Virus record (IMG/VR): IMGVR_UViG_2529292715_000010 | Span: 1-9,651 of that record | From: a virus | Lineage: Duplodnaviria; Heunggongvirae; Uroviricota; Caudoviricetes | Direction: 5' to 3' (one strand) | DNA length: 9,651 bases | Shown: positions 6,001 to 9,000 of the stretch, in pieces | Position numbering within the stretch: the stretch's first letter is position 1 | Layout of the letters: each line of letters begins with the position of its first letter | Position numbers: made by a program

Positions 6001-9000
6001 TTGCAATGCAAATTGAATCATGATTCCATAAAGGTGATAAAAAGTCACCATTAGCCCATAAACCCAGAAAAACCTTTGTTGTTAATATTTTGCAAAGTGT
6101 TGCGAAATTAGCTCCAAGAACCATATCAACTCTGGTCTCAGAGGATGTCATAATAATAGAAATAAATTGAATCAAACAAATGGCAATGAAAACGTATTCG
6201 TGAGTGGTTATTTTTTTGTAGATAAGCGTTTTTGTATAAGTATATTTATCCCTACCATTGGAGCCATGAATACTATAAATGGACCACTTAGTCCACATAT
6301 GATTATCGCTATATAATCGTGTGCTTTTTGATAATTGTTTGTAGGCTTTGGAGCTAACATAACAAGAAGTAAATATAGTGATAAATACCAATAATCATTA
6401 GTAACATTGGCGTGCACTTCTGATACTTCCGGCATTATTATAATAAACAAAGCAGTAAATATTCTTGGTGTTATGTTTACGTAACTAAATCTTCCAGAGA
6501 GTATGAAAGATACAAGCAATGCCCTAACAATAATTGCGGAGATGTTAAAAATTAAAGGGGCATACATTAAATTAAAATTTAATGATATGGAGGCAATAAG
6601 TTTTGATATGGTTTGATATGGTTTGATATGGTTTGATATGGTTTGATATGGTTTGATATGGTTTGATATGGTTTGATATGGTTTGATATGGTTTGATATG
6701 GTTTGATATGGTTTGATAATATCCATTTTGAGGGAATATCATTGATGTGAATATGCCATTATTGTATGCCATAGCATACCATACATGACCATCTTCTGCC
6801 CAAAACTGCGGTGTTCTGATTATATCAGGGCGGCGCAAATACATCAAAATAACCGCAATGAAAAATACAGCAATTAAGAAAAATAGTTTTTTTACATATG
6901 ATGTTTTAAGGCTTTTCATTTTTGTTTCTCATTTTTGATGATGTATTTGGGACGATGTTTGCTTTCAATATAGATTCTGCCTATATATTCACCGAGAACA
7001 CCAATCCCGATCAGCTGCACTCCACCCAAGAAAAGTATTGATACAAGCAGGGAGGGATATCCGCGAACTGGGTTGCCAAAGATAAGGGTGTCTATAATCA
7101 TCCATGCACCATATAAAAACGAAATGCTTGCAACAAACAAGCCTATATAAGTCCATACGCGAAGAGGAAAGGTTGAAAAACTTGTGATGCCTTCCAGTGC
7201 CAGATTCCATAATTTCCAGCCATTAAATTTTGAGATGCCAGCAACACGCTCTGCGCGTACATATTCAACGACATCCGTCTGACCACCCACCCAGCTCAGT
7301 ATGCCTTTCATGAAAAGATTTCGCTCAGGCAATAGTTTAATGTTCTCCACAACCTCACGAGACATGAGTCGAAAATCTCCGACATTTTCCTCGATCTTTG
7401 GAGTGCTTATTTGTTGTGTAACTTATAGAACCACTCAGCTGTCTTACGTTTCAGTCGTCCATCAGTTGAGCGGTCTGAACGTTTAGCAAGCACCATGTCA
7501 GCACCTGCCTGCCACTTTTCAATAAGATGAGGGATAACCTCAATAGGGTCTTGCAGGTCGACATCAATAGGAATTACAGCATCGCCGCTTGCATGGTCTA
7601 ACCCTGCAAATAAGGCTGGTTCTTTACCAAAGTTGCGTGTAAATGACAGCGGAACAACTAGCGGGTCTGAAACAGCCAGCGCGTTAATAATTGACTCTGT
7701 GGCATCTTTACTTCCGTCATTTATGAATACAATTTCTACTTCATATGGCTTCAACTCTTGGAATTCACGTACCGTTTTATAGAAAACAGGTATCGCTTCT
7801 TCTTCATTGAAGACAGGAACGACAAGAGATATTTTCATTTCGCATCCCTAAAAACAATGAACTTTGAATAGACGAAACCGCACACCAGACTGATGGCGGA
7901 GAAGGTGATAAGAGTAACTATTGGAGGAAGTGAGCATTTATCAGCAGCCCAACCAACAATCGCACTCAATATTCCCATGAATCCCACGTATAACATGTAG
8001 CGTATCGCTGTAGTCGATGCTTTGATGTGAATCTTGCATTCGCGAAGAAGCTAAAGCTCACAGCTACTACGAAACCTGTGAAGTTTGCCAGGGCCTGACT
8101 GGTATGCGCGGCATAGATACATACACCAAAAACTACCCAGTGTATAAGTGTATTCAGCACACCTATAGATGTGTACTTTACAAATAACTTTAACATTTAT
8201 TTAATCAATGAGTTCTGAAAGTCATGAAGTCTATCATCCAAGTCTCAATTGATCGATATTTGCTGTGTCTGATGAGACAAAACTGAGACACATAAGGCCT
8301 CGCAATGGCTTGCAAGGCTTTACATGTTTTGATTTAGTGGGACGTGTGAGCGCAGTGTTGATGGGGTAATGCTTTGAATTAGAAGCGGATTCTTATAATT
8401 CGTAATGCGAAGGTCGTAGGTTCGACTCCTATTATCGGCACCATTTAAATCAATAAGTTACACATCATTAGTACCTTCCTTATTTCTTGACTGGGACAAA
8501 TTTGGGACCGATGGGTTCAGAATCGAGTCTATTTGCCGTGCGTGTTCGGTAAGGTGATTAGGTGCGAGGTGAGCATATCGACGAACCATTTCGATAGACT
8601 CCCAGCCTCCCATTTCCTGTAACACTGATAACGGGACTCCGGCTTGAACCAGCCAACTTGCCCAGGTGTGTCTCAAGTCGTGAAATCTGAAATCATCAAT
8701 ACCAGCCCGTCTCAGCGCCGCTTTCCAGGTTGTGTTTGCGTCATACCGCATCTTCCTTACTGTTGGCGCTTTCGTTCCGTCTGGTTTGGTACAGCTTTCC
8801 TTGTACACAAATACCCAACGGTGATGATTTCCGATTTGTTTTTCAATACGCGACATGCAGTATCATTCAGCGCAACGCCAATTGCGCGGTTTGATTTACT
8901 CTCTTTGAGGTGTACTGGCAATAGCGGACACTACCATTTGTTCTTTTTTAAGCAGCCATCTGATGATATTTTTCCCTGAAGGCTGCCGGGGAGATATTCC

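What the first reader, a model, noticed from the sequence alone, without database searches (positions are those of the whole stretch)
8197..8905. att core lies between gtrA and int, an attP (phage-form) junction rather than a prophage end
The 46-nt tRNA-Thr 3' fragment at 8398-8443 has phage genes on both sides: the gtrA start is about 200 bp to its left, and the int stop is 14 bp to its right on the opposite strand. From what I recall of tRNA-integrating serotype-converting phages (gtr(type)-gtrB-gtrA-attP-int in the phage genome), site-specific integration at the tRNA would separate gtrA and int to opposite prophage ends. Contiguity therefore suggests one of: a phage or episomal genome; the internal junction of tandem prophages; or an element that entered by another route. 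The lack of a tRNA 5' half here and the broken integrase fit a non-canonical state. The region 8260-8300 also contains a direct repeat 'tgagaca' that could be an arm-type site.
Basis: partly seen in the sequence, partly recalled or inferred. Interest (0 to 1): 0.55.

Follow-up and report, generated by a model that had tools for sequence, protein, structure and literature searches.

The report
Junction between two stacked Shigella prophages
The phage-like attachment site between gtrA and a broken integrase is most likely the seam where a decayed SfV-like serotype-converting prophage sits against an older prophage remnant at the thrW tRNA gene of Shigella flexneri, an arrangement already described and of ordinary interest.

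Summary
A 46-nt thrW 3' core (8398-8443) lies 201 bp from the gtrA start and 14 nt from the int stop. The stretch from the start of the window to 8905 is collinear with phage SfV across its attP (97%). The window is the whole contig AFGW01000014.1 of Shigella flexneri VA-6.

The reading "phage form rather than a prophage end" is not the best one. The int fragment is cut at 8905/8906 by IS600. The same int::IS600 allele (same insertion point, 2 mismatches in 463 nt, against 9-11 for the phage ints) lies directly downstream of an intact thrW and proA in two complete genomes (S. flexneri SFBU1023 and 'E. coli' ECMA0423) and one draft contig.

Published junction sequences (Sun et al. 2011) show that in S. 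flexneri the flank of thrW is a resident "putative phage int". A newly integrated gtr phage therefore gets an attR of the form gtrA-core-int, and a second phage integrates at attL of the first.

The window is thus most probably the right end of a defective SfV-like prophage abutting an older int::IS600 prophage. The TGAGACA repeats are plausible arm-type Int sites. Known phenomenon, low interest.

The parts
1..5444 (+). Mu-like tail and baseplate module of an SfV-like myovirus prophage (SfV orf15-orf22 homologues). It carries a 182-bp deletion that fuses the gp47 and gp48 homologues into a 483-aa ORF (2927-4378).
   Evidence: 97.8% to SfV U82619; Pfam labels; deletion mapped.
5567..6919 (-). 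gtrV pseudogene (type-V glucosyltransferase). It is disrupted by a T8->T7 frameshift at 6210 and by a decanucleotide repeat expansion at 6602-6718.
   Evidence: 98% to SfV gtrV; TRF finds 11.7 copies of TTTGATATGG.
6916..7838 (-). gtrB (bactoprenol glucosyltransferase). It is split in this contig by a 1-nt deletion at 7409, and is intact (307 aa) in the Illumina contig L005.
7835..8196 (-). gtrA (flippase). It is split in this contig by a 1-nt deletion at 8024, and is intact (120 aa) in L005 and L024.
8197..8397 (+). P arm of the SfV-type att site, which also holds the gtrA upstream region. Candidate arm-type Int sites TGAGACA (8273-8279, 8284-8290) and TGGGAC (8338-8343).
   Evidence: 94-95% to SfV, SfI and an integrated E. 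coli prophage, 99.5% to L005. Homology to P22 and ENT47670 starts exactly at the repeat pair.
8398..8443 (+). 46-nt att core, equal to the 3' 46 nt of tRNA-Thr(CGT) thrW.
   Evidence: Identical to the published core and to thrW in L030.
8444..8905 (-). P' arm plus the 3' part of a P22/SfV-family tyrosine integrase gene (codons about 239-387; CDS 8458-8905). Arm-type candidates TGGGAC at 8492 and 8503. It most probably belongs to an older resident prophage.
   Evidence: 2 mismatches + 1 gap in 463 nt against the thrW-adjacent int' of SFBU1023, ECMA0423 and L033, versus 9-11 mismatches against SfV, SfI and site 2.
8906..9651 (-). IS600, 746 of 1264 bp (transposase on the minus strand), inserted in int. 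The contig ends inside it.
   Evidence: 99.1-99.5% to annotated IS600 copies. In SFBU1023 the same insertion is complete: 1264 bp with a 3-bp CTT duplication, followed by the int 5' part and xis.

Best explanation
The junction is a chromosomal hybrid att site inside the thrW/SHI-O prophage stack of Shigella flexneri VA-6.

An older SfV/SfII-like prophage (B) was integrated at thrW, giving proA-thrW-int_B-xis_B. Its int was then split by IS600. Later an SfV-like phage (A) carrying gtrV integrated by ordinary Int-mediated recombination into the thrW core at attL of B.

That places A's right end (tail genes-gtrV-gtrB-gtrA-P arm) against the core, followed by B's P' arm and int_B'::IS600. The product is sequence-wise an attP look-alike (P arm of A, core, P' arm of B). 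Topologically it is attR of A fused to the attL side of B.

Prophage A has since decayed: gtrV is frameshifted and carries a repeat expansion. A baseplate deletion is also present, though the fused ORF also occurs in other prophages.

Shown:
- collinearity with SfV attP;
- identity of the right arm and its IS600 insertion with the thrW-adjacent allele elsewhere;
- published precedent.

Inferred:
- the order of events;
- that thrW-int_A lies at the unseen left end of A in VA-6.
For: 1. The int'::IS600 of the window (8398-9651) matches L030 (S. flexneri SFBU1023, complete genome) at 99.7% as one block. There it directly follows proA and an intact tRNA-Thr. The same holds in ECMA0423 (L027) and in the Logan contig L033, proB-proA-thrW-int'|IS600.
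2. In L030 the IS600 is a clean 1264-bp insertion with a CTT duplication, followed by the int 5' part, xis and early genes at 99% to SfV. The right-hand element is therefore a prophage entered at thrW.
3. SNPs: the int 3' part has 2 mismatches to the thrW-adjacent allele, against 9-11 to SfV, SfI and a second chromosomal int copy.
4. The left arm, gtrA, gtrB and gtrV are phage DNA contiguous with the SfV map.
5. Sun et al. 2011 (PMC3306764) and its supplement: attB of serotype Y strain 036 is proA-thrW-'putative phage int'. attR after SfX lysogeny is gtrA-core-'putative phage int'. SfI then integrates at attL of SfX, giving gtrA(I)-core-int(X).
6. Another draft genome (L041) shows int(386 aa)...gtr(type)-gtrB-gtrA-core-int with an SfX-type P arm.
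7. The junction recurs in three independent assemblies, and the contigs cross the core without a break.
Against: - The contig starts in a tail gene and ends inside IS600. Neither thrW-int_A at the far left nor the int_B 5' part and xis on the right is seen in VA-6 itself.
- No closed genome of this lineage could be retrieved.
- Both sides are SfV-like and about equally distant from SfV (about 97-98%). A single-element origin (tandem duplication, or entry by homologous recombination) is disfavoured but not strictly excluded.
- The direction of events (insertion of A versus loss of A in the thrW-int' genomes) is inferred. Either direction gives the same structure for the window.
Confidence: 0.8

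Rival explanations
1. Genuine attP: the contig derives from an excised circular, episomal or packaged phage genome present in the sequenced culture.
For: The window up to 8905 is collinear with the SfV phage map across attP. Both arms carry the conserved arm-type repeats.
Against: - The int next to the core lacks its first ~238 codons because of IS600.
- gtrV is a pseudogene with two lesions, and a 182-bp deletion fuses two baseplate genes, although the fused ORF also occurs in other prophages.
- The same decayed locus is inherited in at least 18 assemblies, and the junction itself is seen in 3.
- The identical int::IS600 allele is chromosomal next to thrW elsewhere.
- Excision of prophage A would join gtrA to int_A, not to int_B'::IS600.
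Confidence: 0.03
2. Tandem duplication of one single prophage: unequal crossing-over between attL and attR of sister chromosomes. gtrA and int'::IS600 would then belong to two copies of the same element.
For: Both sides are SfV-like. The remnant next to thrW in SFBU1023 continues with SfV-like xis and early genes. Whether its far end carries the gtrV module could not be checked.
Against: In a duplication, int'::IS600 would have two left neighbours (thrW and the gtrA arm), and assemblers should break at the core. Both the 454 contig and the Illumina contig L005 run straight from gtrA to IS600. Strain 036 carries the resident int next to thrW without any gtr phage.
Confidence: 0.08
3. The phage genome entered by another route, leaving its own attP intact inside the chromosome: homologous recombination with a resident related prophage, or an IS600-mediated cointegrate.
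For: Shigella genomes are rich in IS600 and related prophage segments. 17 of 5426 complete E. coli genomes also show P arm-core-int contiguous in the chromosome, e.g. ET201.
Against: It would need the same IS600 insertion (same site, same SNPs) to have arisen in the incoming phage's int as in the thrW-adjacent int, or a later transfer of that segment. The tandem model needs no such coincidence and has experimental precedent.
Confidence: 0.06
4. Assembly chimera: a false join, through the 46-bp repeat, of a true attR (gtrA-core-host) and a true attL (thrW-core-int').
For: The contig is from a 454-era draft with evident homopolymer errors.
Against: The same join is present in independent assemblies L005 and L024. 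Published Sanger sequences of S. flexneri attR show the same arrangement.
Confidence: 0.02

Closest known systems
attR of SfX or SfI lysogens of S. flexneri 036, and the SfI-SfX tandem junction in strain 036_1d (Sun et al. 2011, PMC3306764; Sun et al. 2013, PMC3636060)
   Same: The layout is gtrA-P arm-46-bp core-int on the opposite strand, inside the proA-yaiC interval. The 35 nt after the core match the window exactly. The host flank is a resident 'putative phage int' associated with IS600. A second phage integrates at attL of the first.
   Different: Here the left-hand prophage is an SfV-type element carrying a dead gtrV, not SfX or SfI. It is a naturally decayed remnant rather than a fresh laboratory lysogen. 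The chromosomal position in VA-6 is inferred, not shown.
attP of phage SfV (U82619) and of SfI, SfII and SfIV
   Same: Same gene order gtrV-gtrB-gtrA-attP-int, 97% identity, identical core, same arm repeats.
   Different: int is truncated by IS600, and its SNPs match a chromosomal thrW-adjacent allele rather than the phage ints. The element is defective and vertically inherited.
P22 attP (lambda-type heterobivalent Int site in thrW)
   Same: Identical 46-bp core. About 80% identity from the first arm repeat (window 8273) to int. The paired TG(G/A)GACA repeats sit in the P and P' arms at the same positions.
   Different: P22 has an extra 87-nt segment with GATC pairs upstream of gtrA. Protein binding was not tested here.
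SHI-O island of S. flexneri (Nie et al. 2006, PMC1550401)
   Same: A serotype-conversion region made of IS-riddled remnants of SfII- or SfV-type prophages. In strain 8401, about 15 kb of SfV remains.
   Different: In VA-6 the gtrV copy is inactivated by a frameshift and a decanucleotide repeat expansion.

Membership tests
SfV/P22-type attP (phage-form attachment site) | Core identical to the 3' end of thrW | tested here: met
   46/46 identical to the published core and to thrW in L030.
SfV/P22-type attP (phage-form attachment site) | Phage P arm and P' arm on both sides, with conserved arm-type repeats | tested here: met
   Left arm 94-95% to SfV and SfI, right arm 97.6%. TGRGAC repeats are conserved in P22 and ENT47670.
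SfV/P22-type attP (phage-form attachment site) | Both arms belong to one and the same phage genome, with its own intact int and xis next to the site | tested here: not met
   int is cut by IS600 at 8906 and xis is absent from the window. The right arm carries the SNPs and the IS600 insertion of the allele found next to intact thrW in other genomes.
SfV/P22-type attP (phage-form attachment site) | Located on a circular or encapsidated phage molecule | not testable with these tools
   Only a draft contig is available. Gene decay and vertical inheritance argue against it.
Tandem-prophage hybrid junction (attR of one element / attL side of the next) at thrW | Left arm continuous with the cargo end (gtrA) of a prophage | tested here: met
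   Uninterrupted collinearity with SfV from the tail genes to the core.
Tandem-prophage hybrid junction (attR of one element / attL side of the next) at thrW | Right arm is the int end of a different, resident prophage that elsewhere abuts thrW directly | tested here: met
   Same int'::IS600 after intact thrW in L030, L027 and L033. Strain 036 attB.
Tandem-prophage hybrid junction (attR of one element / attL side of the next) at thrW | Intact thrW plus attL (thrW-int_A) at the far end of the left prophage in the same genome | not testable with these tools
   The contig starts in a tail gene. Other contigs of VA-6 could not be fetched, and no closed genome of the lineage was found.
Tandem-prophage hybrid junction (attR of one element / attL side of the next) at thrW | Remainder of the right-hand prophage or yaiC-side host DNA beyond the IS600 | not testable with these tools
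   The window ends 746 bp into IS600. In SFBU1023 the int 5' part and xis follow.

The most novel reading that the evidence does not exclude
Lineages of S. flexneri carry a fixed int'::IS600 remnant right after thrW. In them the bacterial 'attB' is really an attL-type site that already has a P' arm with Int arm-type sites. Every new lysogen then acquires a right-hand junction that is a complete attP look-alike. If these hybrid sites remain substrates for incoming Int/Xis, they could bias where later phages integrate (at attL of the resident). They could also change excision products and drive the stacking and decay of serotype-converting prophages in SHI-O. The thrW locus would then act as a self-propagating phage-capture array rather than a simple attB.
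Probability: 0.2. Interest if true: 0.35.

Novelty: already known. Interest (0 to 1): 0.15.

Why it matters
It matters mainly for annotation. In Shigella flexneri, a gtrA-core-int arrangement should not be taken as evidence of a free or episomal phage, nor of an unusual entry route. It is the expected right end of any gtr prophage that integrates at a thrW already occupied by an integrase remnant.

Recognising this prevents mis-calling prophage boundaries and 'attP' sites in draft genomes. It also helps reconstruct the order of serotype-converting phage acquisitions in SHI-O. The decayed gtrV with its variable decanucleotide repeat may be a useful lineage or typing marker.

Tried and rejected
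- **Int ORF look-up.** An exact look-up of the 132-aa Int ORF of the window found nothing, because the ORF is distorted by the 1-nt deletion.
- **Other window proteins.** Look-ups of the 483-aa, 274-aa and 146-aa window proteins returned only draft contigs of 10 kb or less, so no closed genome of this lineage could be read.
- **P0072.** This 483-aa variant in the complete genome CP030787.2 lies in an unrelated e14-like prophage without gtr.
- **E. coli complete genomes.** None contains the whole window. Integrated relatives stop matching at or about 18 nt beyond the core and continue into the yagP/pao host flank.
- **P0104 and P0099 contigs.** These are not IS600-truncated at this site. They end 15-28 nt past it, apparently at a repeat boundary, so they were not counted as copies of the int'::IS600 remnant.
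- **Papers.** Adhikari et al. 1999 (PMC103612, the strain Y53 organisation) is not held. A text search for the WGS accession found nothing.
- **TGRGAC enrichment.** It is not enriched over the whole window (10 found, 8 expected). Only the clustering at the att site and its conservation carry weight.
- **IS600-mediated rearrangement.** Rejected as the cause of the junction, because normal P' arm and int sequence continues for 462 bp between the core and the IS.

Full report
**What is in the window.** The window is the complete 9651-bp contig AFGW01000014.1 of assembly GCA_000213695.2. Protein accessions name the organism as Shigella flexneri VA-6. Positions 1-8905 are collinear with phage SfV (U82619, 12107-21100) at 97.3% identity. 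The order is:
- Mu-like tail and baseplate genes on the plus strand;
- gtrV, gtrB and gtrA on the minus strand;
- the att region;
- the 3' part of int on the minus strand (annotation of SfV, of SfI).

From 8906 to the end the sequence is IS600 (99.1-99.5% to annotated copies).

**Check of the observation.** The 46 nt at 8398-8443 are identical to the published att core of SfI, SfII, SfV, SfX and P22 (PMC3636060). They are also identical to the last 46 nt of an intact tRNA-Thr(CGT) gene in S. flexneri SFBU1023. ARAGORN finds no tRNA in the window, so the 5' half is absent. gtrA starts at 8196, 201 bp left of the core. The int stop codon is at 8458-8460, 14 nt to the right. TGAGACA occurs at 8273 and 8284. 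Int retains only residues about 239-387. The gtrA-core-int junction is also present in two independent assemblies (L005, L024).

**Sequence quality and decay.** Relative to SfV there are single-base deletions in homopolymer runs in gp45 (2305), gtrV (6210), gtrB (7409), gtrA (8024) and int (8838).
- The gtrB, gtrA and int deletions are absent from the Illumina contig L005, where GtrB (307 aa) and GtrA (120 aa) are intact. The Gp45 homologue is full length (182 aa) in another contig, L008, so the 2305 deletion is probably also specific to this contig. These four are probably 454 errors.
- The gtrV deletion is shared with L005 and is real.
- Other real lesions are a 100-bp expansion of TTTGATATGG in gtrV, the 182-bp deletion fusing two baseplate genes and the IS600 in int.

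The element is a defective, vertically inherited prophage remnant, not a viable phage.

**What the right arm is.** The species-representative genomes were scanned with the last 20 nt of the core plus the first 32 nt of the int side. This found two complete genomes, S. flexneri SFBU1023 and 'E. coli' ECMA0423.
- In both, window 8398-9651 matches as one block at 99.6-99.7%. Upstream of the core there is no gtrA. Instead there is the 5' half of thrW, making an intact tRNA-Thr in SFBU1023, preceded by proA.
- In SFBU1023 the IS600 is a clean 1264-bp insertion with a CTT target duplication. The int 5' part (241 codons), xis and early genes follow at 99% to SfV.
- A Logan contig (L033) likewise reads proB-proA-thrW-int' and ends 15 nt into IS600.
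- In the 463 nt of int 3' sequence, the window differs from this thrW-adjacent allele by 2 substitutions and the T-run gap. It differs by 9-11 substitutions from SfV, SfI and a second chromosomal int copy.

The int'::IS600 of the window is therefore the same insertion allele that elsewhere forms the attL side of a prophage sitting at thrW.

**What the left arm is.** Positions 8197-8397 are 94-95% identical to the P arm of SfV and SfI, and to that of a normally integrated E. coli prophage. In that prophage the core is followed by host DNA (yagP/pao). The left arm is thus phage P-arm DNA continuous with gtrA, not bacterial flank.

**Published precedent.** Sun et al. 2011 (PMC3306764) sequenced the relevant junctions.
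- In serotype Y strain 036, attB reads proA-thrW-'putative phage int'.
- After SfX lysogeny, attR reads gtrA(X)-core-'putative phage int'.
- SfI then integrates at attL of SfX, giving gtrA(I)-core-int(X).
- Their figure legend places IS600 and IS629 between this int and yaiC.
- The 35 nt after the core in their attB and attR are identical to window 8444-8478.

A further draft genome (L041) shows int(386 aa)...gtr(type)-gtrB-gtrA-core-int with an SfX-type P arm. SFBU1023 has a second site reading tail gene-oac-core-int. Stacked att junctions are thus recurrent in this species. In complete E. coli genomes they are rare but present (17 of 5426).

**Mechanism proposed.** An older SfV/SfII-like prophage B integrated at thrW, and its int was later split by IS600. 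An SfV-like phage A carrying gtrV then integrated by Int-mediated recombination in the core of thrW, that is, at attL of B. A's P arm and gtrA end then lie against the core, followed by B's P' arm and int'::IS600.

The result has the sequence organisation of an attP, but it is attR of A fused to the attL side of B. The shared IS600 insertion in both contexts (thrW-int'::IS600 and gtrA-core-int'::IS600) means one state derives from the other by gain or loss of A at the core. Either direction gives the tandem structure for the window.

What is not shown is the far-left end of A (thrW-int_A) and what follows IS600 in VA-6, because the contig ends on both sides.

**Rivals.**
- *Free or episomal phage.* This is very unlikely given the truncated int and the gene decay. 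The locus is inherited across at least 18 assemblies. Excision of A would also join gtrA to int_A, not to int_B'::IS600.
- *Tandem duplication of a single prophage.* It is disfavoured because both 454 and Illumina contigs cross the core without the break expected if int' had two left neighbours.
- *Entry by homologous recombination.* This would require the same IS600 insertion to have arisen twice, or to have been transferred.
- *Assembly chimera.* It is excluded by the independent assemblies and the Sanger precedent.

**Arm-type sites.** Homology of distant relatives (P22, about 80%; Cronobacter phage ENT47670, 76%) begins exactly at the TGAGACA pair. The same positions read TGGGACA/CGGGACA in P22 and TGGGACA/TGAGACA in ENT47670.

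An invariant TGGGAC lies at 8338, and an invariant pair TGGGACnnnTTTGGGAC lies in the P' arm (8492, 8503). All are on the plus strand, and the paired copies are 11 nt apart. Five same-strand copies in 236 bp compare with roughly 0.1 expected from base composition (my estimate). Over the whole window the hexamer is not enriched.

This fits the lambda/P22 pattern of arm-type Int sites. From memory, Smith-Mungo, Chan and Landy (1994) described arm-type sites and IHF sites in P22 attP. I could not check that paper. Binding was not tested here.

**Comparison and novelty.** The closest known cases are the attR and tandem junctions of SfX/SfI lysogens (Sun et al. 2011, 2013) and the SHI-O mosaic (Nie et al. 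2006). The window passes the sequence features of an SfV/P22-type attP. It fails the feature that both arms and a functional int belong to one phage. It meets the testable features of a tandem-prophage hybrid junction.

The phenomenon is already known. The specific VA-6 remnant is an ordinary further example. Interest is low (0.15). The practical value is in annotation: such junctions in Shigella drafts should not be read as free phage.

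Noticed in passing
window 6602-6718 (inside gtrV): Perfect tandem array of the decanucleotide TTTGATATGG. There are 11 full copies here, 1 in phage SfV, and 3 to 14 copies in 18 other S. flexneri draft contigs. It is a hypervariable repeat inside a dead glucosyltransferase gene and a possible typing marker.
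   Followed up: partly
window 2305, 7409, 8024, 8838 (and 6210): Single-base deletions in homopolymer runs break gp45, gtrB, gtrA and int in this contig. The gtrB, gtrA and int deletions are absent from L005, and the Gp45 homologue is full length in L008, so they look like 454 errors. The T8->T7 change in gtrV at 6210 is shared with L005 and is real.
   Followed up: partly
window 2927-4378: A 182-bp deletion between 15-nt imperfect direct repeats fuses the gp47 and gp48 baseplate homologues into one 483-aa ORF. A near-identical fused protein also occurs in an e14-like prophage of the complete genome CP030787.2, so the fusion may circulate among prophages rather than being unique decay.
   Followed up: partly
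L028 (S. flexneri SFBU1023, second site): A second attP-like chromosomal junction: Sf101-like tail gene and O-acyltransferase, core, full-length int (387 aa), IS600, then SfII tail-fibre genes. This is another stacked prophage seam in the same genome.
   Followed up: partly
L041 (GCA_025497885.1, contig DAJLDI010000068.1): int (386 aa), P22/SfX-like early genes, a 494-aa gtr(type), gtrB, gtrA, an SfX-type P arm, core, then another int 3' part. This is a compact prophage whose right end again abuts an int.
   Followed up: partly
L036 (E. coli ET201) and 16 other E. coli genomes: 17 of 5426 complete E. coli genomes have P arm-core-int contiguous in the chromosome. In ET201, tail genes, a cargo gene, the att region, int, xis and early genes lie in phage-map order.
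   Followed up: no
L034 (P22) versus window 8197-8260: P22 carries an extra 87-nt segment with several GATC motifs just upstream of gtrA. The SfV-type arms lack it, and the window keeps a single GATC at about 8251. From memory, these GATC pairs are the Dam/OxyR phase-variation switch of Salmonella gtr operons. If so, that control is probably absent here.
   Followed up: no
L002 (E. coli LD27-1) about 12900-12930: In a normally integrated E. coli prophage, the host flank after the core still resembles the phage P' arm for about 18 nt (matches to the window end at 8461). This may be a trace of earlier integrations at thrW.
   Followed up: no
L032 (JAEWTL010000063.1, 'Bacillota bacterium' MAG): A 5.5-kb contig of a Bacillota MAG carries an Escherichia-type thrW followed by an SfV-family int at 98% identity. 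This is almost certainly a binning contaminant.
   Followed up: no
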